Below are positions 6,474 through 31,071 of a stretch of 32,000 nucleotides of DNA, piece after piece. How positions within the stretch are numbered: position 1 is the first letter of the stretch; every line of letters begins with the position of its first letter. Both the position numbers and the translations under genes were made by a program. The notes below the pieces were generated by a model that was given only the letters and a program-made list of their open reading frames with translations, made no database searches and had not been told where the DNA came from. Source of the DNA: Moraxella nasicaprae (GTDB lineage: Bacteria; Pseudomonadota; Gammaproteobacteria; Pseudomonadales; Moraxellaceae); the NCBI RefSeq assembly GCF_025643275.1, contig NZ_CP089977.1, positions 240,001 through 272,000 on the forward strand, in the 5' to 3' direction.

Positions 6474-8588
6474 TCAGTTATCAGCAGATTTTTTGGTCAG
6501 CTGATTTAGGCGATGTAAAATACCTGCTTGATTCAGACCGCACTGGGCAAGCTGCTCAGCATGACTGGCATGAGCAATGAATGTATCTTCAATGCCAATA
6601 TTAGTTATCTTACCTGCATAGCCTACCTTGACCAGATACTCATTCACTGCCGAACCTGCACCGCCTGTGATTTGGTGTTCTTCAACCGTGATAAACCGTG
6701 TCACTCCCTGACGAATGAGCGTATCGATAAGCTGGCTGTCCAGCGGTTTAACCCAACGCATGTCCACCACCGTCATCGGTATATGGTTTTGCTTGATAAA
6801 ATCTTGACTGGCTGCCAATGCGTCATGCAAACGGGTACCAAAAGCCAGTACAGCAAATTTATCATCTGCCAGTTGTTCAAAGTCATCTGTCTGCCAGACC
6901 ACGCTTGCTTGTCCGATGGCAAAATGCTCATCATCACAGCCGACAACCCTACCCACACCTTCGCCACGAGGATAACGCACCGCTGCTGTGCCTTGATGGC
7001 GATAACAAGTGTTTAGCAGTTGATGGCATTCATGCTCATCGCTTGGTGTGGCAATGATGACATTGGGAATACAGCGTAAATATGCCAAATCAAACACACC
7101 TGCGTGTGTCGCTCCATCTTCGCCTACCAGCCCTGCTCTATCAATGGCAAAAGTCACATCAAGATTTTGTAATGCCACATCGTGAATGAACTGGTCATAG
7201 CCACGCTGTAAGAAGGTGGAATAAATCGCCACCACGGGCTTGATACGACCGCTGGTTGCCATACCTGCCGCCAAAGTCACGGCGTGCTGCTCAGCAATCG
7301 CCACATCAAAAAAACGCTGCGGATAGGCTTTGGCATATTCAACCATGCCAGAACCCTCTGCCATGGCAGGTGTAATGGCAACCAGCATATCATCACTGCT
7401 GGCGGTGTGCATGAGCCAATCGCCAAATACTTGGGAATATTTTTTCTTAGGAGTAGTGACGGTATGAGCTTTATCAGATGATGAATCCGCCTTGGGCAGC
7501 TTGCCAATCGCATGATAGCCAATGGGGTCGGCTTCGGCTGGCAAAAATCCCTTACCCTTGACCGTATGCACATGCACCAACACCGCTCCTGTCAGATTTT
7601 TGGCTCGTTCAAGCACGGTCATCAGCTTGGGTAAATCATGCCCATCAAACGGCCCAAGATAAGTAAAGCCAATCGCTTTAAATAGATTATCAGCAAATAA
7701 TTTATCGCCAATCTTTTCGGCAATCTTATCAGGTAAAGGCGATAGTGGCGTACCACTAAAAATCTCACCCAATTTTTCGCCAATCTTGCTAGGCAGACGG
7801 CTTGATACATCTTCTAAGGCCTCATTAGCCATGTGCAAATAGTGGCGAATGCGACGGTCATCAGTCGAAATGTCTCGCTTGGTCATCAAGATATTGCCAT
7901 GCTTGTCAATATCCATCGCCAACCCTCGTTGCCATAACTTTGCCAAATGACGACTAAATCCACCGATTGCCTGTGAAATTGACATGTCATTATCGTTCAG
8001 CACCACCAATAAATCAGCGTTTTGCTGAACGGCGTCATTCATCGCCTCAAACGCCATGCCACCTGTCATCGCACCATCGCCAATCACTGCCGCTACTTTG
8101 CGAGATTCGCCAAGCAGTCTAGACGCCAAGCTCATGCCCAACGCTGCTGAAATTGATGTGGACGAATGCCCCACCCCAAAAGTATCATACTCGCTTTCGC
8201 TGCACTCTGGAAAAGCGGTCAAACCTCCTTTTGAGCGAATGCTGGGTAATTGCTCACGGCGACCTGTTAGCACTTTATGCGCATAGGCTTGATGCCCAAC
8301 ATCCCACACCAGCTTATCATAAGGCGTATCTAGGACTGTATGCAACGCCACTGTCAATTCAACCACGCCCAAATTCGCCCCAAAATGTCCACCACTCACC
8401 CCTGTTGAATACAACAGATAAGCTCGCAGTTCATCGGCAAGCTGTAATAGCTGATGTTGGGATAACTGCTTTAAATCAGCAGGTGACGCCACCGTGTCCA
8501 AAATTGGCGTATCAGGACGCACGGTTGGCAGCTCTTGAAAGACTTTGGCTTGATGGGAAAGGTTGGTGTTCTGGGCTAAATCTGGCAT
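6474..8588 (-). CDS. dxs: 1-deoxy-D-xylulose-5-phosphate synthase
   Basis: Likely start is ATG 8588 (MPDLAQN...). ThDP motif GDGAMTGGMAFEAMN..NDN is present and the protein is collinear with E. coli Dxs throughout. An enlarged linker falls at residues ~213-307. Confidence 0.95.
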   Translation of the reverse strand: MPDLAQNTNLSHQAKVFQELPTVRPDTPILDTVASPADLKQLSQHQLLQLADELRAYLLYSTGVSGGHFGANLGVVELTVALHTVLDTPYDKLVWDVGHQAYAHKVLTGRREQLPSIRSKGGLTAFPECSESEYDTFGVGHSSTSISAALGMSLASRLLGESRKVAAVIGDGAMTGGMAFEAMNDAVQQNADLLVVLNDNDMSISQAIGGFSRHLAKLWQRGLAMDIDKHGNILMTKRDISTDDRRIRHYLHMANEALEDVSSRLPSKIGEKLGEIFSGTPLSPLPDKIAEKIGDKLFADNLFKAIGFTYLGPFDGHDLPKLMTVLERAKNLTGAVLVHVHTVKGKGFLPAEADPIGYHAIGKLPKADSSSDKAHTVTTPKKKYSQVFGDWLMHTASSDDMLVAITPAMAEGSGMVEYAKAYPQRFFDVAIAEQHAVTLAAGMATSGRIKPVVAIYSTFLQRGYDQFIHDVALQNLDVTFAIDRAGLVGEDGATHAGVFDLAYLRCIPNVIIATPSDEHECHQLLNTCYRHQGTAAVRYPRGEGVGRVVGCDDEHFAIGQASVVWQTDDFEQLADDKFAVLAFGTRLHDALAASQDFIKQNHIPMTVVDMRWVKPLDSQLIDTLIRQGVTRFITVEEHQITGGAGSAVNEYLVKVGYAGKITNIGIEDTFIAHASHAEQLAQCGLNQAGILHRLNQLTKKSADN

Positions 8589-26198: not shown

Positions 26199-27737
26199 TC
26201 AAAAACGCTTTTTAAAGTTTGGAGGTAACTGACTGCCCAGCTCTTGCATTTTTTTCTGCATTTCTTCCATGCTGGGCATTTCGTTGGGATTTAGCCCTAA
26301 ATCTTGCATGGACTGCCTCATTTGAGCCATGTCTGGTGCAGCATCTTGACCACCCTTACCGCCAAACAAAGGACCTGACGCCATGCCACGAGTCAGACCT
26401 TGTACTGCTTTCATCATTTTGCCCAGACCCTCGGGACGACTAATCATCTTCATCATGCGAGCCATCTGCTTGTGCTGTTTGAGCAGGCGGTTCACATCTT
26501 GGATTTGTTTACCTGAACCTGCGGCAATACGGCGTTTACGGCTTGGTGTGATTTTATCAGGATTTTGGCGTTCAAAAGGCGTCATCGAATGGATTAAGGC
26601 TTCCATTTCCTTAACCTTTTCCTCAGGCTTTGCCTCTTCCATCGCTTTTTGGATATCAGCACCGCCTAAGCCTGGCATTTTATCCAAAAATCCAGCCATG
26701 CCACCCAAATTTTTCATTTGTTGGAATTGGTTGAGCAAATCTTCAAGGTCAAACTCCCCACCCTTTTGGATTTTTTTCGCCATGCGTTCGGCTTGCTCAC
26801 GGTCGATTTTTGCCTCAACCTCTTCAACCAGCGACAACACATCGCCCATGCCCAAAATACGCTGAGCGATACGCTCTGGGTGGAACAGCTCCAACGCTTC
26901 TAATTTTTCGCCACGACCCAAAAATTTGATGGGTTTGCCTGTAATGGCTCGTACTGATAAGGCAGCACCACCTCGTGCATCGCCATCGGTTTTGGTCAAA
27001 ATCACGCCTGTCAAAGGCAAAGCATCATTAAAGGCTTTGGCGGTATTGGCAGCGTCTTGACCTGTCATACTATCAACCACAAACAAAGTTTCCACAGGAT
27101 TGACAGCGGCAGCAAGCGATTTGATTTCGTCCATCATCTCATCATCAATGTGCAAACGACCTGCGGTATCGATGATTAAAATATCTTGGTATTGTAATTT
27201 AGCCTCGTTAATCGCACGATGGGCGATGTCTAACGGCTTTTCGTCAGGGCTTGATGGCACAAAACTTGCCTTAACCTGCATTGCCACCTGTTCAAGCTGC
27301 TTAATCGCTGCTGGACGGTACACATCGGCAGAAACCAGCATGACTTTTTTGTTATGTTTTTCTTGCAAAAATTTGGCAAGTTTACCTGCGGTTGTGGTTT
27401 TACCAGCACCTTGCAGACCAGCCAATAAATACACCATGGGTGGCTTGCCTGTCATTTCCAGCGACTGATTGGCAGCACCCATCATTTCTGACAATTCGTC
27501 ATAGACGATTTTAACAAAGGCTTGACCTGGTGCCAGCTCTTTTAGCACCTCTTGACCCAAAGCCTGTTCTTTGACTTTGGCAACAAAATCCCGAGCCACA
27601 GGCAAGGCAACATCCGCCTCCAATAGTGCCATACGCACTTCACGCAGTGTGTCTTTGATGTTGTCTTCGGTCAGTTGACCTGTGCCTGCAATATTACGCA
27701 GACTGCCAGAAAGTCGTTCGGTTAGAGTATCAAACAT
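26199..27737 (-). CDS. ffh: Signal recognition particle protein Ffh
   Basis: 512 aa. GLQGAGKTTT P-loop, DTAGR, TKTDGDARGG and a Met-rich M domain are present. The C-terminus is about 60 aa longer than E. coli Ffh (453 aa). Confidence 0.95.
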   Translation of the reverse strand: MFDTLTERLSGSLRNIAGTGQLTEDNIKDTLREVRMALLEADVALPVARDFVAKVKEQALGQEVLKELAPGQAFVKIVYDELSEMMGAANQSLEMTGKPPMVYLLAGLQGAGKTTTAGKLAKFLQEKHNKKVMLVSADVYRPAAIKQLEQVAMQVKASFVPSSPDEKPLDIAHRAINEAKLQYQDILIIDTAGRLHIDDEMMDEIKSLAAAVNPVETLFVVDSMTGQDAANTAKAFNDALPLTGVILTKTDGDARGGAALSVRAITGKPIKFLGRGEKLEALELFHPERIAQRILGMGDVLSLVEEVEAKIDREQAERMAKKIQKGGEFDLEDLLNQFQQMKNLGGMAGFLDKMPGLGGADIQKAMEEAKPEEKVKEMEALIHSMTPFERQNPDKITPSRKRRIAAGSGKQIQDVNRLLKQHKQMARMMKMISRPEGLGKMMKAVQGLTRGMASGPLFGGKGGQDAAPDMAQMRQSMQDLGLNPNEMPSMEEMQKKMQELGSQLPPNFKKRF

Positions 27738-27981
27738 AAGCGTTCCGTTAAAATTTAATCATAATCAATGATGGCAATGAATGTAGCTAACTGGCATCAA
27801 ATACACCCATCAACTCAAAGCTCCAATCATCAATATCGTTACCAATATTGGCAAAAATCTATGCAATATCCACCATGATATCATCAAGCCATTCTTATTG
27901 TGCGTAAGTCTAGCATTGATTAAAGCCATTTGCAACGAATGAAGAACATTATCCCAAAAAATCAAGCCTTTATCATCTTAT

Positions 27982-28029
27982 CTTGCTTACCATTCATTTT
28001 TTATGCCTTAAAAATTTATCTTAATTTGA
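27982..28029. repeat. Left-edge imperfect direct repeat of the ffh-ypjD islet
   Basis: The blocks CTTGCTT (27982), ATTCAT (27992), ATTTATCTT (28014) and ATTTGA (28024) recur in the same order at 30119-30158. Confidence 0.25.
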
Positions 28030-28047
28030 TTTGATGGATTGCCTTGG

Positions 28048-28122
28048 CTAATCCTTAATGATATTACGGCTAAAATTAACCGTATTTGCCCCCAGTACGA
28101 TGTTAATTGCTAATGCCATCAT
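28048..28122 (-). CDS. Candidate 24-codon small ORF (MMALAINIVLGANTVNFSRNIIKD) starting inside repeat copy 1
   Basis: SD AAGGAAAT lies just upstream of ATGATG. The first 7 codons lie inside the 54-bp identical repeat. Codons 8-9 differ from copy 2 only synonymously (ATC/ATT, GTA/GTT). Confidence 0.25.
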   Translation of the reverse strand: MMALAINIVLGANTVNFSRNIIKD

Positions 28123-28153
28123 ATTTCCTTTGGGTAATAAAAAACCCACCGAT
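28100..28153. repeat. 54-bp perfect direct repeat, copy 1 (3' of paralogue A)
   Basis: atgttaattgctaatgccatcatatttcctttgggtaataaaaaacccaccgat is identical 54/54 to 28752-28805. Confidence 0.9.
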
Positions 28154-28164
28154 GAGGGCGGGTT
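28135..28164 (-). terminator. Rho-independent terminator after paralogue A (one stem mismatch)
   Basis: On the minus strand: AACCCGCC-ctcatc-GGTGGGTT followed by TTTTTATTA. It partly lies inside repeat copy 1. Confidence 0.5.
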
Positions 28165-28180
28165 TGGTCAATGAGTTTGG

Positions 28181-28594
28181 TTAGGCTGTGATAAAGGGTT
28201 GTAATTTTTTTAAACCCGATGTATCAGCTCTTAGAATCGCCTGCCTCCCATCTCCTGCTTTTAATGCAAGATAGTGGTAGGTTTTATCATCTGGTGCTGT
28301 GAGCAACCCAAGTGCCAATGTACTCAGCCCCAATCCAACCGATCCAGTTAAAGCAACCCCAGTCGCTACAACGGTTCCGACCTGATGAATGCCCCCAAGT
28401 AGCGATTGAGCGGTTTCTGTTTTATCAAGTAGATGTAGCGTTGTTCCTGGCTGATTAAGGATAATTTCTGCATTTCCTGAAAACAGCCCACGCTTTTTCG
28501 GAAAAATCAGTGCAGGAGGTAGGTGATTATTCCGTACAATCATGGGCATATTCTTGTCAAAATCATTGGACTCAAAGACTGTTATCATAACCAT
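28181..28594 (-). CDS. Hypothetical small membrane protein, paralogue A (Gly-rich hydrophobic core)
   Basis: 137-aa ORF with an alternative start at ATG 28588. Soluble N-terminal ~60 aa, then a hydrophobic core GGIHQVGTVVATGVALTGSVGLGLSTLALGLL, then a C-terminal ~35 aa with DGRQAILRAD...FIT. It has its own promoter-like and terminator elements but no clear SD. Confidence 0.6.
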   Translation of the reverse strand: MVMITVFESNDFDKNMPMIVRNNHLPPALIFPKKRGLFSGNAEIILNQPGTTLHLLDKTETAQSLLGGIHQVGTVVATGVALTGSVGLGLSTLALGLLTAPDDKTYHYLALKAGDGRQAILRADTSGLKKLQPFITA

Positions 28595-28630
28595 TTAATG
28601 CTATTTGCATTGCTTATTCATTCCATTTTG

Positions 28631-28659
28631 ATTATAAAATTAAACAAATCCAAAAACAA
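28631..28659 (-). promoter_or_regulatory. Candidate sigma70 promoter for paralogue A
   Basis: On the minus strand: TTGTTT (28659-28654), 17 bp, TATAAT (28636-28631), about 35 nt upstream of the ORF start. Confidence 0.35.
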
Positions 28660-28751
28660 GTATTATTCAATCCTTCGCTCCAAGCCCTGCAATCAGCCGT
28701 GCCATACACGCATCAAGTTCAGCTTGTCGCTCTGCTTGATACTACTCAACA

Positions 28752-28805
28752 ATGTTAATTGCTAATGCCATCATATTTCCTTTGGGTAATAAAAAACCCA
28801 CCGAT
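28752..28805. repeat. 54-bp perfect direct repeat, copy 2 (3' of paralogue B)
   Basis: Identical 54/54 to 28100-28153. Weaker similarity continues about 25-30 nt toward each upstream stop codon. Confidence 0.9.
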
Positions 28806-28818
28806 AAAGGTGGGTTTT
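28787..28818 (-). terminator. Rho-independent terminator after paralogue B
   Basis: On the minus strand: perfect AAAACCCACC-tttatc-GGTGGGTTTT followed by TTATTA. Confidence 0.7.
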
Positions 28819-28835
28819 GTAAATCATGTTGTGAT

Positions 28836-29243
28836 TTAAGAAATGTATTTTAAAAACTGCTGATATTTTTTCTTATCAAGCTGCACAACAGCAGATTTGC
28901 CATCAGTAAATTCAATATGAGTAACATAAACATCTTTGGTGTGGTTTGGTAATTTGCTGCCAAACCACAATGCCGCAAGTGCAGGAAAGACACCTGCACC
29001 AAACAGCATTGCTCCCACAGTCATGCTTAATGCACCATTTTGAACTGAATTTGCCAAGGTTTTTACTTTGTCAGTATCAACCAGTTCAAATTTTTTTACT
29101 TGGGTGGATAAATTATATACTTGGCTTTTGTTTGTTTCTTTATCGGTCATGGCAAAGAAACGACCAGTTGAAGCCCCGCCATAAAGCACAAAATCATCAG
29201 AATGCAATATCTTGATACCAAACATAGCAAATCCCATCAGCAA
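28836..29243 (-). CDS. Hypothetical small membrane protein, paralogue B (Gly/Ala-rich hydrophobic core)
   Basis: 135-aa ORF with a TTG first codon. Alternative ATG starts at 29237 and 29225. Hydrophobic core NGALSMTVGAMLFGAGVFPALAALWFG and a C-terminal DGKSAVVQLD...YIS. The architecture is collinear with paralogue A. Confidence 0.6.
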   Translation of the reverse strand: MLMGFAMFGIKILHSDDFVLYGGASTGRFFAMTDKETNKSQVYNLSTQVKKFELVDTDKVKTLANSVQNGALSMTVGAMLFGAGVFPALAALWFGSKLPNHTKDVYVTHIEFTDGKSAVVQLDKKKYQQFLKYIS

Positions 29244-29453
29244 AGATTGTCTGTACCATACTAAGTTATCCTAAAATTCAAGCAAGGGCAAGCAAATGCC
29301 TAATGCAAATAATACTGTTTTTTGGCACGGTGCTTATCAAGGAATGCCAAAACTTGCTTGCGTCGTTCAGCAAAAGGCATTAAGCTGCCTGCTGCTTGTT
29401 CATTCTCGGAAGTTGGCAAGGTCTTTTCGTTTCTGACACAATAAATTCTGTCA

Positions 29454-29490
29454 TTGACATATATTCAAAATGACATTAGAATATATGTCA
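29454..29490 (+). promoter_or_regulatory. Near-consensus sigma70 promoter embedded in a 12-bp perfect inverted repeat (candidate Arc-type operator)
   Basis: TTGACA (29454-29459), 17 bp, TAGAAT (29477-29482). The inverted repeat is TGACATATATTC (29455-29466) / GAATATATGTCA (29479-29490). Extra TGTCA/TGACA half-sites lie at 29449 and 29471. Confidence 0.6.
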
Positions 29491-29519
29491 ATAATCAATC
29501 TTAAAAAAGGTACTATTTT

Positions 29520-29732
29520 ATGTCATATTTGAATACCACCGAACTACTTCAAAATCAAGACACTTGGAAACGCTCACAAGTACGCCTGCCCAACAGCCTT
29601 TATCAAGTGGTTGCCAAATATGCAGAAGAGCAAAGTATGTCTTTAAATACTGCCATCATTCATCTTTTGGACATAGCTTTGGTTGAAGCCAACGCCAAAA
29701 AGCAAGCTCTAAACAACCAATCAGAGTCATAA
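29520..29732 (+). CDS. Arc/MetJ-type ribbon-helix-helix DNA-binding protein
   Basis: 70 aa. The segment KRSQVRLPNSLYQVVAKYAEEQSMSLNTAIIHLLDIAL fits a beta-strand, helix A, helix B layout like Arc/Mnt-family phage repressors. SD AAAAGG. Confidence 0.7.
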   Translation: MSYLNTTELLQNQDTWKRSQVRLPNSLYQVVAKYAEEQSMSLNTAIIHLLDIALVEANAKKQALNNQSES

Positions 29733-29775
29733 AACAAGCGGGTGTTTTTGCCTGTTTTATGGACTGTTGGTAAAT

Positions 29776-30078
29776 TTACACTTGCTTTGCCTGATGCTTG
29801 GCAAACATCGCCATCAGAGCTTCGGCATCTTTTTGGGCTTGCACTTGTGCCTTATGCCGTTCGTACTCTTCACGCATTTCATCGGTCATGGGGTTTGGGT
29901 CAATGGGCAAAAAGTCGCTGATGGACACCCCGTCATTACCCAGCTTGGCATACAATAGATGGGCGGTCTGAATGTCCTGACGAAAGCCGCCGAAGGGGTC
30001 TAGGCGGTCGTAGGCTTGCCATTCGATGAGTTCATTATAAGACAGCTCATCTTCAAGCTCGCCTACGGTGCGCTCTAA
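29776..30078 (-). pseudogene. Start-less remnant of a lambda-type tail assembly protein T (Phage_tail_T / tail assembly chaperone-like)
   Basis: My own minus-strand translation gives a 100-codon frame, open from a TGA at 30079-30081 to a TAA at 29776-29778. Sequence: LERTVGELEDELSYNELIEWQAYDRLDPFGGFRQDIQTAHLLYAKLGNDGVSISDFLPIDPNP... The pattern RTVxEL..S..E...W.AY.RL.PFG..R.D...A matches my memory of the T-domain family. There is no upstream G gene. Confidence 0.5.
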
Positions 30079-30118
30079 TCAATGATGTATATTGACCGTT
30101 TGTGATTGATTCATCAGC

Positions 30119-30158
30119 CTTGCTTTTGTTAATTATTCATATTTATCTTGTATTTTGA
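30119..30158. repeat. Right-edge imperfect direct repeat of the ffh-ypjD islet
   Basis: CTTGCTT (30119), ATTCAT (30135), ATTTATCTT (30141) and ATTTTGA (30152), collinear with 27982-28029. Confidence 0.25.
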
Positions 30159-30279
30159 CTATTCATCAGTTCAAATCTATGATAAATTAGCAAGCATTTC
30201 CATTAACATTGCACCATGCCCATTAACTTAATCACCCAAATGTGTGCTGATGAGCTTGATGGCAATAAAAGAGGTTTGT

Positions 30280-31071
30280 GTGCTGATTGTTTTTTTGATG
30301 ACCACCATCATCTATTCCACCAGCAGTGTGTATCTGACACATACACTACTGCAAAAAACTACCCCAAATAAGTTTGGGTTACTGGGTTTCTTGATACTCG
30401 GTGTGTGCTTGCACGGTTATCTACTATATCCACAAATAATGACTTTACATGGCTTAAACTTCAACCTGTTTAACACATTGAGCCTAACCAGTCTGTTTTT
30501 TGTGATTTTTTATGTGCTATTTGGATTGTATCGCCCCATTTTAAGTTTAGGGATTTTGGCAGTACCCATCGCACTGGCTGGTGTTAGCACAGGTTATTTT
30601 GGCAAGGCAAGTTACCAACCGATTGCCAGCCTTAATATCGGCTTGCAGCTTCACATTTTGTTATCGTTTGCCGCTTACTGCGTTTTATTGATGGCAGCCG
30701 TGCAGGGTTTTATCCTAAAATTACAAATCAAAGAACTAAAACACCAAACCATTCATCGCTTTTGGGTCAGTCGTCTGCCTGCCTTGCAAAGTATGGAAGG
30801 TCTGCTGTTTGATATGATTTTGATGGGCTTTGTCATTTTAAGCATTGCACTTGGTTTTGGATTTGTGGCAACCTATGACATCTTAGACCAGCACATCGCC
30901 CATAAAATGTTTTTTAGCTTGGCAAGTTGGGTTGTGTTTGGCATTTTGATTGCAGGGCATTATCTGCATGGCTGGCGTGGTAAGCGTGCGGCAAATTTCA
31001 CCATTTATGGTTTTATCTTACTTGCCATCGGTTTTGTGGGTTCAAAGGCGGTGCTGGAATTGATTTTGTAG
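30280..31071 (+). CDS. ypjD: Cytochrome c assembly family inner-membrane protein YpjD (CcsA-like)
   Basis: The track ORF starts at 30244. I prefer GTG 30280, which has the SD AAGAGG 5 nt upstream and gives 263 aa, the same length as E. coli YpjD. The 26-residue spacing to the LLQK motif and the C-terminal GWRGKR motif also match. Confidence 0.8.
   Translation: MLIVFLMTTIIYSTSSVYLTHTLLQKTTPNKFGLLGFLILGVCLHGYLLYPQIMTLHGLNFNLFNTLSLTSLFFVIFYVLFGLYRPILSLGILAVPIALAGVSTGYFGKASYQPIASLNIGLQLHILLSFAAYCVLLMAAVQGFILKLQIKELKHQTIHRFWVSRLPALQSMEGLLFDMILMGFVILSIALGFGFVATYDILDQHIAHKMFFSLASWVVFGILIAGHYLHGWRGKRAANFTIYGFILLAIGFVGSKAVLELIL

What the first reader, a model, noticed from the sequence alone, without database searches (positions are those of the whole stretch)
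28181..29243. Two extremely diverged but collinear paralogous membrane proteins: a candidate uncharacterised phage-derived exclusion/immunity family
ORF A (28181-28594, 137 aa) and ORF B (28836-29243, 135 aa) lie head-to-tail on the minus strand. Each has its own promoter-like element and its own rho-independent terminator, which is a moron-like layout. Their nucleotide sequences do not align, yet the proteins are collinear. The shared parts are an N-terminal I-x-[VI]-[FL]-x-S-[ND]-D-F (ITVFESNDF / IKILHSDDF) and an anchor [LF]-x-L-[LV]-D (LHLLD / FELVD). From that anchor, tails of 80 and 79 residues align without gaps. Each tail holds a 26-34 residue Gly/Ala-rich hydrophobic core (GTVVATGVALTGSVGLGLSTLALGLL / GALSMTVGAMLFGAGVFPALAALWFG). 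Each also holds a C-terminal module D-G-[RK]-x-A-[IV]-[LV]-x-x-D ... [LF]-x-x-[FY]-I-[TS]. I do not recognise the family. There is no signal peptide or lipobox. The setting is a prophage remnant next to an Arc-like repressor, which recalls the P22 immI/sieA neighbourhood. This suggests superinfection exclusion, abortive infection, or an immunity/pore-forming function, but that is inference only. Two copies held at such divergence suggest diversifying selection rather than simple decay.
Basis: partly seen in the sequence, partly recalled or inferred. Interest (0 to 1): 0.75.

Follow-up and report, generated by a model that had tools for sequence, protein, structure and literature searches.

The report
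Two-allele phage moron gene family
Two barely similar small genes lying side by side in a Moraxella chromosome are leftovers of one uncharacterised phage gene family that always sits between the phage tail-chaperone and tape-measure genes. A known phage-exclusion gene of phage HK97 occupies the same slot, so they probably protect the cell against other phages, but this is untested.

Summary
ORF A (28181-28594) and ORF B (28836-29243) are intact, head-to-tail genes on the minus strand, and each ends in a strong terminator. Their DNA does not align and direct BLASTP finds nothing. They are still true distant homologues, linked by an intermediate sequence, by profile comparison and by a decoy-calibrated HMM search.

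The setting is not a P22 immI/sieA-like region. It is a composite prophage remnant in Moraxella nasicaprae: tail protein gpT, an Arc-like module, B, a tape-measure (TMP) 5' stub fused to a gpT 3' end, A, then a second TMP 5' stub. In intact-looking phage tail modules both types occupy the same gpT|TMP slot. That slot is where the HK97 gp15 superinfection-exclusion moron lies. In one metagenomic chromosomal locus, A-type and B-type ORFs replace each other between flanks that are 96% identical.

The family is very small and almost confined to Moraxella. It has no Pfam, NCBIfam or PADLOC match, only a distant PHROG of unknown function. The B lineage is under purifying selection. The fold model suggests a PH-like beta domain split by a Gly/Ala-rich, only marginally hydrophobic hairpin. 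Exclusion or defence is the best guess by positional analogy and is unproven.

The parts
29776..30078 (-). Remnant of phage tail assembly protein gpT (100 codons, no start codon of its own, 5'-truncated; gpG is lost). This is unit 1 of the composite remnant.
   Evidence: Pfam Phage_tail_T E=3.2e-15, 56.7 bits, above the cut-off. tblastn to L009 gpT residues 8-95 gives 65% identity, E=6.6e-34. 80% nucleotide identity to L041 gpT. Frame checked.
29415..29734 (+). Arc-like (ribbon-helix-helix) regulator module. CDS 29520-29732, preceded by a 40-bp palindrome at 29453-29492 that contains the promoter TTGACA-17-TAGAAT. It is an independent insertion between gpT and B.
   Evidence: phrog_8682 E=3.7e-33 and Arc-like PHROGs E=8e-6. 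Pfam Arc E=0.015, below threshold. Promoter scores 11/12. Inverted repeat I4. 87% nucleotide identity to Mcat15. Absent from L041 and L045.
29255..29281 (-). Weak promoter-like element upstream of B (TTGAAT-15-TATGGT). The -10 element is shared with the solitary copy in L002, which has TTGAAA-17-TATGAT.
   Evidence: Read from the sequence. Not reported by the consensus scan. Inference only.
28836..29243 (-). ORF B, the B-type slot gene. Probable start is ATG 29225, giving 129 aa. Layout: beta-rich N-terminal half, Gly/Ala-rich uncharged core at residues 64-90, C-terminal strand-strand-helix module.
   Evidence: phrog_20920 E=3.6e-9. dN/dS 0.14-0.26. AlphaFold2 pLDDT 70.7.
28791..28818 (-). Rho-independent terminator of B (10-bp stem followed by a T-run).
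   Evidence: RNA fold dG -15.2 kcal/mol. Sequence checked. Part of direct repeat D1.
28742..28774 (-). 5' stub of a tape-measure gene (MMALAINIVE*), preceded by its ribosome-binding site. This is the end of unit 1.
   Evidence: Matches the TMP N-termini MALGINIVLGADTV (L009) and MALAINIVLGANTV (L042).
28667..28741 (-). 3' end of a second gpT gene (…AELDACMARLIAGLGAKD*), fused directly to the TMP stub. This is the start of unit 2.
   Evidence: tblastn to L009 gpT residues 90-108, 68% identity, E=1.3e-4. Frame checked. 86% nucleotide identity to L003 and L045.
28631..28659 (-). Promoter-like element upstream of A (TTGTTT-17-TATAAT).
   Evidence: Read from the sequence. Homologous position to TTGAAA-17-TATAAT in L003, L041 and L045. 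Not reported by the scan.
28181..28594 (-). ORF A, the A-type slot gene. Probable start is ATG 28588, giving 135 aa. Same three-part layout as B, with the uncharged core at residues 70-99.
   Evidence: Relatives P0007 (47%), P0036 (39%) and P0008 (33%). All invariant family columns are retained.
28142..28165 (-). Rho-independent terminator of A.
   Evidence: Terminator scan. dG -14.7 kcal/mol.
28048..28122 (-). Second 5' stub of a tape-measure gene (MMALAINIVLGANTVNFSRNIIKD*). This is the end of the phage remnant on the ffh side.
   Evidence: tblastn to L009 TMP residues 1-20, 75% identity. 92% nucleotide identity to L041 and L045. Translation.

Best explanation
**What it is (shown).** A and B are two deeply diverged versions of one phage gene family. 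Its home is the slot between the tail assembly chaperone gene (gpT) and the tape-measure gene (TMP) of Moraxella siphophages. Each version is a self-contained cassette: a sigma-70-like promoter, a 129-138-codon ORF, a strong terminator, then the ribosome-binding site and start of TMP.

The window holds a 2-kb composite prophage remnant wedged between ffh and a ccsA-family gene. Two such cassettes, from two phage lineages, were left in tandem after everything else was deleted. The junction is a TMP 5' stub fused to a gpT 3' end. An Arc-like regulator module has additionally inserted upstream of B.

**How it probably works (inferred).** The cassettes are transcribed from the repressed or defunct prophage. 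The protein is a small beta-rich, possibly PH-like, cytoplasmic domain. It is split by a 27-32-residue Gly/Ala-rich hairpin that anchors it in, or dips it into, the inner membrane.

Its role is probably to stop related phages at or after DNA entry. That is what HK97 gp15, in the identical slot, does in a tail-dependent way. Alternative alleles (A-type and B-type) would then give different specificities, and carrying both would broaden protection.
For: **Slot**
- A-type P0036 lies between Phage_tail_T and a 1268-aa TMP.
- B-type P0005 lies between Phage_tail_T and a TMP of at least 1257 aa, in a syntenic tail module.
- The window contains gpT and TMP fragments flanking both ORFs.

**Cassette anatomy**
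- Terminators have dG -14 to -15.6 kcal/mol in 7 loci, and promoters read TTGAAA-17-TATAAT or TATGAT.
- GC content is 37% for B and 43.5% for A, against 51-54% for the adjoining gpT DNA.

**Homology of A and B:**

**Signs of function**
- dN/dS is 0.14-0.26 in the B lineage.
- Intact copies survive in remnants that have lost every other phage gene.
- One copy is solitary, between sppA and purH.
- A copy is widespread in M. catarrhalis, next to Abi_alpha and a cI-like repressor.

**Allelic replacement:** flanks are 96.3-96.8% identical while the ORFs cannot be aligned.

**Precedent**
- HK97 gene 15 sits between the chaperone and TMP genes with its own terminator. It encodes an inner-membrane exclusion protein whose effect depends on the tail region (PMC3594210; annotation).
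- Other morons in or near the late/tail genes give anti-phage defence: Tab (PMC10884400) and P-FimU (PMC12952977).

**Fold and topology**
- The AlphaFold2 model of B packs the N- and C-terminal parts into five strands, a helix, two strands and a C-terminal helix.
- PH domains dominate the non-significant Foldseek lists.
- Lys-rich sequence follows the core, and there is no signal peptide.
Against: - No experiment or expression data of any kind exists. No sequence or fold match to any known exclusion or defence protein was found: PADLOC gave nothing, and hhalign to HK97 gp15 gave 0.3% probability.
- Membrane insertion is uncertain. The Hessa-scale sums are positive. The commonest M. catarrhalis allele has an Arg inside the core and an altered DG[KR] motif.
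- The gene is as diverged as the phage structural genes around it. It may be a long-standing phage function rather than a host-protective add-on.
- The window's own promoters are weak.
- The fold assignment rests on one model of moderate confidence from a shallow alignment. The model of A failed, with pLDDT 49.8.
Confidence: 0.5

Rival explanations
1. Abortive-infection or pore-type effector. The Gly/Ala-rich (glycine-zipper-like) segment oligomerises into a membrane lesion when a phage infects. The cell dies and the population is protected.
For: - The core has glycine-zipper-like spacing.
- In M. catarrhalis the gene lies beside Abi_alpha and the cI repressor.
- In the window, B is paired with a divergent Arc-like repressor carrying a strong operator-like palindrome. 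This could keep a toxic product low.
- The distant relative phiOH2 gp01 carries an automated 'mechanosensitive channel' label.
Against: - The Arc module is not part of the cassette in phages.
- No antitoxin-like partner is conserved.
- Cassettes appear constitutive, with near-consensus promoters. That is hard to reconcile with a toxic pore.
- There is no PADLOC hit.
- The channel label is unsupported by any Pfam hit.
Confidence: 0.15
2. A phage life-cycle function rather than host protection. Examples are an accessory factor acting with the tape measure or chaperone during tail assembly or DNA injection, a counter-defence, or a lysis-timing factor.
For: - The gene keeps the same slot in two phage lineages whose gpG, tube and TMP proteins share only 29-36% identity. 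The gene itself is equally diverged. This looks like long co-inheritance with the tail module.
- The distant relative in Geobacillus phage phiOH2 lies directly after the holin and endolysin genes.
- Tab-type defences are paired with counter-defences encoded in late operons.
Against: - A terminator stands between the gene and TMP, and the gene has its own promoter.
- Mcat15 carries five unrelated genes in the same slot and no family member.
- Intact copies under purifying selection persist where no tail genes remain.
Confidence: 0.15
3. Lysogenic-conversion factor unrelated to phages. Examples are envelope stress tolerance, a change in pilus or surface phenotype, or a host-interaction trait of these mucosal bacteria.
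For: - Morons have diverse host-directed roles (PMC3594210).
- The family is restricted to Moraxella and is kept in chromosomes without phage genes.
- There is no link to any defence family.
Against: - Alternative, unalignable alleles at one locus and tandem carriage of both types are typical of specificity-driven conflict genes rather than housekeeping-like traits.
- The slot-specific precedent is exclusion.
Confidence: 0.15
4. Chance resemblance or decaying junk. A and B are unrelated or dead ORFs in a rotting prophage, and the collinearity reflects only a shared hydrophobic block.
For: - Direct BLASTP gives E=28.
- A B-type HMM does not retrieve window A itself.
- An A-type HMM built without P0008 is only marginal.
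- A is known from a single genome.
Against: - The transitive and profile links are strong, and all decoys score lower.
- Both ORFs are full length and keep every invariant column.
- dN/dS is well below 1.
- Both types occupy the same slot in intact tail modules.
Confidence: 0.03

Closest known systems
HK97 gp15 moron (superinfection exclusion; YebO-like)
   Same: - Identical genomic slot: gpT stop, short spacer, small ORF, terminator, TMP start (PMC3594210).
- A small protein with a hydrophobic segment.
- The cassette is separated from TMP by its own terminator; gp15 is reported to be expressed from the HK97 prophage, which is only inferred for the Moraxella cassettes.
   Different: - No sequence relationship (hhalign probability 0.3%).
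- gp15 is 62 aa with one strongly hydrophobic N-terminal helix (Hessa sum -1.5).
- A and B are 129-135 aa with a central, marginally hydrophobic Gly/Ala-rich core flanked by beta-rich halves.
- The function of A and B is untested.
phrog_20920 / Geobacillus phage phiOH2 gp01 (unknown function)
   Same: - Distant homologues. B hits the PHROG at E=3.6e-9. hhalign of the family to gp01 gives 87% probability, E=3.8e-6, over the C-terminal module.
- Same order of parts: an acidic anchor, a Gly-rich core, then K-x-K-G-V-Y-V…F-K-D-G-K.
- Located at prophage ends.
   Different: - 115 aa with a shorter N-terminal half.
- Firmicute phage; positioned after the lysis cassette, not in the tail operon.
- A-type proteins reach this PHROG only at E=0.06-0.14, or not at all.
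P22 immI region / SieA
   Same: A prophage-borne small hydrophobic protein near an Arc-family regulator.
   Different: - No ant, mnt or sieA relatives are present.
- The Arc-like gene is an independently mobile module.
- The genes belong to the tail operon, not to an immunity region.
Tab / Tai tail-assembly blockers and P-FimU (late-operon morons giving defence)
   Same: [quoted passage not shown]
- Tab acts through the tape-measure protein (PMC10884400).
- P-FimU lies next to the chaperone gene (PMC12952977).
   Different: - Unrelated proteins in different slots.
- Tab acts on tail assembly of the invading phage rather than at the membrane.
- No counter-defence partner is seen beside A or B.
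Bacterial PH-domain proteins (e.g. PDB 3b77)
   Same: - Predicted seven-strand plus C-terminal-helix arrangement.
- PH, GRAM and PTB folds, including 3b77, fill the top Foldseek ranks.
   Different: - No significant score: best E=0.017, TM-score 0.28-0.43.
- No Pfam bPH hit.
- Here the hydrophobic hairpin is inserted inside the domain, between strand 5 and strand 6.

Membership tests
Phage moron (sense of Juhala/Hendrix; PMC3594210) | Lies between two genes that are adjacent in related phages | tested here: met
   - The gene lies between gpT and TMP in L009, L041 and L042.
- The same slot holds other cargo in Mcat15.
- No related Moraxella phage with an empty slot was found. Direct gpT-TMP adjacency in other siphophages rests on general knowledge, not on a test made here.
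Phage moron (sense of Juhala/Hendrix; PMC3594210) | Own terminator | tested here: met
   Hairpin plus T-run with dG -14.2 to -15.6 kcal/mol after the ORF in the window (both genes) and in L003, L009, L013, L041 and L045.
Phage moron (sense of Juhala/Hendrix; PMC3594210) | Own promoter, expressed from the repressed prophage | tested here: inconclusive
   - TTGAAA-17-TATAAT or TATGAT is present in L003, L041, L045, L013 and L002.
- The window copies are weaker and were missed by the scan.
- No transcript data are available.
Phage moron (sense of Juhala/Hendrix; PMC3594210) | Base composition differs from the flanking phage genes | tested here: met
   B is 37.0% GC and A is 43.5% GC, against 51.5% and 54.4% for the gpT fragments.
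HK97 gp15 / YebO family | Sequence similarity to gp15 | tested here: not met
   hhalign of the family profile against gp15 gives 0.3% probability.
phrog_20920 | Significant match to the PHROG profile | tested here: met
   - B scores E=3.6e-9 over residues 40-134, and P0003 scores 1e-8.
- A itself has no hit. It belongs only by transitivity through the A/B homology.
Any curated family (Pfam, NCBIfam, PADLOC, PDB sequences) | Match at or above the curated threshold | tested here: not met
   Only sub-threshold noise was found.
Superinfection exclusion protein | Expression in a lysogen blocks infection by other phages without loss of adsorption | not testable with these tools
   Positional analogy only.
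Integral inner-membrane protein | At least one segment hydrophobic enough to insert | tested here: inconclusive
   - Uncharged runs are 27-32 aa, and Kyte-Doolittle 19-residue maxima are 1.7-2.2.
- The Hessa-scale sum is +1.4 to +3.6, against -1.5 for gp15.
- pLDDT is below 50 over the core.
PH-like fold | Significant structural match to PH-domain structures | tested here: inconclusive
   - The top PDB hits are PH, GRAM and PTB domains with probability 0.8-0.97 but E of 0.017 or worse and TM-score of 0.43 or less.
P22 immI-type immunity region | arc/mnt/ant gene set with a linked sie gene | tested here: not met
   Only an Arc-like gene is present. It is a separate module shared with Mcat prophages, where it sits next to other cargo.

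The most novel reading that the evidence does not exclude
The gpT|TMP slot of Moraxella siphophages may carry a previously unknown exclusion system with swappable specificity alleles (A-type, B-type and intermediates).

The proposed protein is a PH-like cytoplasmic domain split by a re-entrant glycine-rich membrane hairpin. It would recognise the incoming tape-measure or tail-tip complex at the inner membrane and block DNA entry. Bacteria would domesticate single or stacked cassettes as minimal defence genes.
Probability: 0.25. Interest if true: 0.65.

Novelty: new variant of a known kind. Interest (0 to 1): 0.45.

Why it matters
HK97 gp15, the first element to be called a moron, remains mechanistically unsolved. 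A second, unrelated protein family in exactly the same slot would help in several ways:
- It has natural alternative alleles, stacked copies and domesticated solitary copies.
- It would give a comparative handle on why the chaperone/tape-measure junction attracts such genes.
- It would help show how tail-dependent exclusion works.
- It also gives a concrete, testable candidate phage-resistance gene for Moraxella. Phage biology there is poorly known, and M. catarrhalis carries a B-like copy in many isolates.

If the genes have nothing to do with phages, the finding is a tidy example of prophage decay and cassette exchange and little more.

Tried and rejected
**Pairwise tests of A against B**
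- Direct BLASTP found nothing.
- Full-shuffle permutation tests gave only modest z-scores (3.3-4.9). They are biased by the co-located hydrophobic block.

**Database searches that gave nothing usable**
- Pfam, NCBIfam and PADLOC on A and B gave nothing at threshold.
- A PDB sequence-profile search gave nothing.
- tblastn of A and of P0008 against 50,697 phage records gave no match.
- A-type searches of IMG/VR and JGI metagenomes found no relatives. The mixed alignment was too variable to scan with.
- The one genome-contig scan returned only one locus. The empty ffh/ccsA site in other Moraxella could therefore not be examined.
- Rfam gave no family at gathering score. A sub-threshold Trp_leader hit is just the terminator hairpin.

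**Structure**
- Foldseek against PDB and BFVD gave no significant hit.
- The AlphaFold2 model of A was too poor to use, with pLDDT 49.8.

**Leads judged spurious or unsupported**
- P0009, a 1292-aa repeat protein hit by A at E=2e-5, was judged spurious because of low-complexity Ig-like repeats.
- The idea that the Arc-like gene regulates B as part of one unit was dropped. Phage cassettes lack it.
- Weak C19orf12-like Pfam hits (E=4e-4, 17.7 bits against a cut-off of 30) concern only the Geobacillus relatives. They are kept only as a lead.
- The Ariff et al. 2015 paper on M. catarrhalis prophages does not discuss this gene.
Full report
**What is in the window**

The window is Moraxella nasicaprae chromosome. 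ORF A (28181-28594) and ORF B (28836-29243) lie head to tail on the minus strand. They sit in a 2.5-kb gap between ffh (26199-27737) and a cytochrome-c-assembly-family gene (30244-31071; Pfam E=2.3e-18). The NCBI-annotated products (135 and 129 aa) and the family alignments place the real starts at ATG 28588 and ATG 29225.

The two ORFs share no alignable DNA; the best blastn hit has E=0.24. Each is followed by the same 83-nt sequence, 89% identical between the copies. This repeat consists of a strong rho-independent terminator (dG -14.7 and -15.2 kcal/mol) followed by a ribosome-binding site and the opening codons MMALAINIV….

**Are A and B related?**

Pairwise evidence is weak:
- BLASTP gives E=28.
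Full shuffles overstate significance when both proteins carry a hydrophobic block at the same position.

An exhaustive phmmer search of 1.84 billion representatives with A found only three real relatives:
- A itself.
- P0007, 47% identity, E=2.5e-23.
- P0008, 33% identity, E=1.5e-11.

P0008 bridges the two types. It aligns to B over 123 residues at BLASTP E=2e-10.

Further links between the two types:
- hhalign of the A-type alignment against the B-type alignment gives 95.5% probability, E=1.3e-8.
- An HMM of four A-type proteins scores all eleven B-type proteins tested at 19-29 bits. The best of 20,000 shuffled decoys scores 11.7 bits.
- A-type P0036 against B-type P0005 gives a direct BLASTP E of 4.4e-5.

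Two weaknesses remain:
- A B-type HMM recovers P0008, P0007 and P0036 but not window A itself.
- Without P0008 the A-type HMM is marginal.

Window A is therefore the most divergent member, and the link is transitive. P0008 is A-like at both ends, not an obvious chimera. I accept homology.

**How big is the family?**

It is very small. A profile search of 5.8 billion clusters returned 36. Every one that carries an organism name is from Moraxella (M. catarrhalis, M. nasicaprae, Moraxella sp.); the rest are unnamed metagenome or read-assembly contigs.

There is no Pfam, NCBIfam, PADLOC or PDB-sequence match. B matches phrog_20920, of unknown function, at E=3.6e-9.

A probable member of that PHROG is gp01 of Geobacillus phage phiOH2:
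- It is 115 aa and lies after the holin and endolysin genes at the prophage end.
- It shares the Gly-rich core and the C-terminal module (hhalign 87% probability, E=3.8e-6).
- Relatives again sit at prophage ends.

**What is the setting?**

The decisive evidence comes from related loci:
- A-type P0036 lies between a Phage_tail_T gene (the frameshift extension of the tail assembly chaperone) and a 1268-aa TMP_3 tape-measure gene.
- B-type P0005, 87% identical to B, lies between Phage_tail_T and a tape-measure protein of at least 1257 aa, in a syntenic tail module.

The L009 tape-measure protein begins MALGINIVLGADTV… and the L042 one begins MALAINIVLGANTV…. The 83-nt repeat in the window is therefore the cassette terminator plus the 5' end of a tape-measure gene.

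Read along the minus strand, the window contains the following:

| Order | Coordinates | Feature |
|---|---|---|
| 1 | 30078-29776 | Nearly complete gpT remnant (Pfam Phage_tail_T E=3.2e-15; 80% nt identity to the L041 gpT) |
| 2 | 29772-29229 | 544-bp insertion carrying the Arc-like module |
| 3 | 29225-28836 | ORF B, then its terminator |
| 4 | 28774-28742 | Tape-measure stub, MMALAINIVE*: ten sense codons and a stop |
| 5 | 28741-28667 | 3' end of a second gpT (…AELDACMARLIAGLGAKD*), fused in frame to the stub |
| 6 | 28588-28181 | ORF A, then its terminator |
| 7 | 28122-28048 | Tape-measure stub of 24 codons |

No tRNA or integrase is present. This is a composite remnant of two phage cassettes. 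The simplest origin (inference) is two related prophages in tandem, with a deletion from the tape-measure gene of one to the gpT gene of the other, followed by loss of everything outside.

The gpT C-termini support separate origins. Unit 1 ends like the gpT upstream of B-type cassettes (M. catarrhalis, L041). Unit 2 ends like the gpT upstream of A-type cassettes (L003, L009).

**Moron anatomy**

In seven loci the ORF is followed by a hairpin of dG -14.2 to -15.6 kcal/mol and then immediately by the tape-measure start.

Promoter-like elements upstream:

| Locus | Element | Note |
|---|---|---|
| L003, L041, L045 | TTGAAA-17-TATAAT | The -35 lies in the loop of a hairpin after gpT |
| M. catarrhalis (L013), L002 | TTGAAA-17-TATGAT | |
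| L009 | Extended -10, TGcTATAAT | Followed by a perfect 10-bp palindrome |
| Window A | TTGTTT-17-TATAAT | Weaker; missed by the consensus scan |
| Window B | TTGAAT-15-TATGGT | Weaker; missed by the consensus scan |

GC content is 37.0% for B and 43.5% for A, against 51.5% and 54.4% for the gpT fragments.

The slot is variable. In prophage Mcat15 the gpT and tape-measure genes are separated by five unrelated genes, and no family member is present.

This is exactly the layout of the HK97 gene 15 moron. There the order is the G-T frameshift product, 57 nt of spacer, gp15 (62 aa), an annotated terminator, and the tape-measure gene 12 nt later. [quoted passage not shown] Its product inserts into the inner membrane and blocks genome injection in a tail-dependent way (PMC3594210). 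gp15 has no sequence relationship to the family (hhalign 0.3%).

**Paralogues or alleles?**

The two phages carrying A-type (L009) and B-type (L041/L042) genes are syntenic but old relatives:

| Protein | Identity, L009 vs L041/L042 |
|---|---|
| 115-aa protein | 46% |
| Tube-like protein | 36% |
| gpG | 29% |
| gpT | 67% |
| TMP | 34% |
| Slot gene | about 29% |

The A/B divergence is no greater than that of the backbone. It needs no special diversifying selection in the window.

Two metagenomic contigs, L003 and L045, show the same chromosomal remnant next to a copper-type P-type ATPase gene:
- Their flanks are 96.3-96.8% identical.
- L003 carries A-type P0007 and L045 carries B-type P0004.
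- The breakpoints lie about 35 nt upstream of the start and 6-13 nt after the stop.

This is clean allelic cassette replacement within a population. It is what one expects of specificity alleles in a conflict system.

Other evidence that the genes are functional:
- The B lineage is under purifying selection: dN/dS 0.26 against the 95%-identical copy in L002, and 0.14-0.18 against M. catarrhalis.
- Copies persist where no other phage gene remains. In L002 the copy is solitary between sppA and purH, with homology confined to window 28836-29262.
- In M. catarrhalis a B-like gene sits at a fixed site next to ppk2. It is again followed by a tape-measure stub fused to a gpT fragment, with a different breakpoint. 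Then come Abi_alpha and a cI-like repressor.

**The protein**

AlphaFold2 on a 33-sequence alignment gave B a mean pLDDT of 70.7 and pTM of 0.63. The predicted elements are:
- five strands (residues 4-48);
- a helix (51-62);
- a low-confidence hydrophobic stretch (63-81);
- a helix (82-91);
- two strands (99-117);
- a C-terminal helix (118-128).

Seven strands plus a C-terminal helix is the PH-like pattern. PH, GRAM and PTB domains fill the top Foldseek ranks: USP37, MTMR6, Rtt106, ICAP1 and the bacterial PH protein 3b77. Nothing is significant, with best E=0.017 and TM-score 0.43 or less. The model of A failed, with pLDDT 49.8.

Features of the hydrophobic core:
- It is 27-32 uncharged residues, rich in Gly and Ala, with a central G/P break.
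- It is preceded by acidic sequence and followed by Lys-rich sequence.
- There is no signal peptide.

These features, together with the model packing both halves into one domain, suggest an in-in hairpin. That is inference. The core is only marginally hydrophobic: Kyte-Doolittle 1.7-2.2, but a Hessa-scale sum of +1.4 to +3.6, against -1.5 for gp15. The commonest M. catarrhalis allele also has an Arg within the core. "Membrane protein" is therefore plausible but not shown.

**The Arc-like gene**

The Arc-like gene (29520-29732) hits phrog_8682 at E=3.7e-33 and Arc-like PHROGs at E=8e-6. Its palindromic promoter (29453-29492) reads TTGACA-17-TAGAAT.

Together they form a module found at 72-73% protein identity in ten M. 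catarrhalis prophages. In Mcat15 the module is 87% identical in DNA. It sits between other tail genes, divergent from a KilA-N-like gene. Intact B-type cassettes lack it. It is a neighbour by insertion, not evidence for a P22 immI-like region.

**Function**

Nothing here tests function. The best-supported reading is a prophage-expressed moron protein acting at the inner membrane against incoming related phages. It rests on:
- the slot precedent of HK97 gp15;
- other late-operon morons giving defence (Tab, PMC10884400; P-FimU, PMC12952977);
- the cassette anatomy;
- retention after prophage decay;
- purifying selection;
- allele replacement and stacking.

I put about 0.9 on the anatomy, family and slot conclusions, and about 0.35-0.4 on exclusion or defence. 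Three rivals remain open:
- an abortive-infection pore;
- a phage life-cycle role, suggested by long co-inheritance with the tail module and by the post-lysin position of the Geobacillus relative;
- a phage-unrelated conversion trait.

**Verdict**

Noticed in passing
window 29415-29734 (+); L031 3895-4266: An Arc-like regulator gene with a 40-bp perfect-arm palindrome that contains its own near-consensus promoter. The module is 87% identical to one in M. catarrhalis prophage Mcat15, where it sits between tail genes and faces a KilA-N-like gene. It behaves as a small mobile regulatory module of unknown target.
   Followed up: partly
window 28667-28774; L013 8468-8686: A junction of a tape-measure 5' stub fused to a gpT fragment occurs both here and in M. 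catarrhalis, at different breakpoints (after codon 9-10 against after about codon 45). Recurrent formation of this odd junction suggests repeated tandem-prophage deletion or some cassette-stacking process.
   Followed up: partly
L002 5982-6408 (window 28836-29262): A 95%-identical copy of B sits alone between sppA and purH in another Moraxella. Homology starts at the -10 element and stops exactly at the stop codon, with no gpT or tape-measure flanks. How such a minimal unit moved is unexplained.
   Followed up: partly
L003 vs L045 (whole contigs): The same chromosomal remnant beside a Cu-type P-type ATPase carries either an A-type or a B-type ORF between flanks 96% identical. This is a natural allele swap.
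   Followed up: yes
L032 (Mcat15 record 30416-33249): In Mcat15 the gpT|tape-measure slot holds five other genes. They include a 59-aa protein with a signal peptide, a 212-aa membrane-anchored protein and a 335-aa Bro-N/antirepressor-like protein. The slot is a cargo hotspot.
   Followed up: partly
L013-L021, gene at 8001-8405: The commonest M. catarrhalis allele (P0028) has an Arg inside the hydrophobic core. It also has DDSKSAILLQL in place of the conserved DDGKSAILQL. Within-species comparisons give 6.5 non-synonymous against 1.5 synonymous differences, which is too few to interpret. This could be decay or a specificity change.
   Followed up: no
L030 3384-3731 (phiOH2 gp01, NC_021784 355-702): This distant relative is annotated 'small-conductance mechanosensitive channel', with no Pfam support. 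Three of four relatives give weak sub-threshold hits to Pfam C19orf12-like (best E=4e-4, 17.7 bits against a cut-off of 30). This may reflect a shared glycine-zipper hairpin.
   Followed up: partly
L009 1716-1772: Upstream of A-type P0036 lies an extended -10 (TGcTATAAT) followed by a perfect 10-bp inverted repeat (CTTACTATCA aa TGATAGTAAG). It looks like an operator, which hints at regulated rather than constitutive expression in that phage.
   Followed up: no
L013 8770-9609 and neighbours: In M. catarrhalis the B-like gene heads a degraded prophage. Its next genes are Abi_alpha and a cI-like S24 repressor, and further downstream a SocA_Panacea-domain gene. Together they form a small cluster of defence-type genes.
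   Followed up: no
window 27738-28047 and 30079-30243: The AT-rich stretches (33% and 30% GC) between the remnant and ffh or the ccsA-family gene have no recognisable coding remnant, att repeat or tRNA. The original integration site and ends of the prophage could not be defined.
   Followed up: partly
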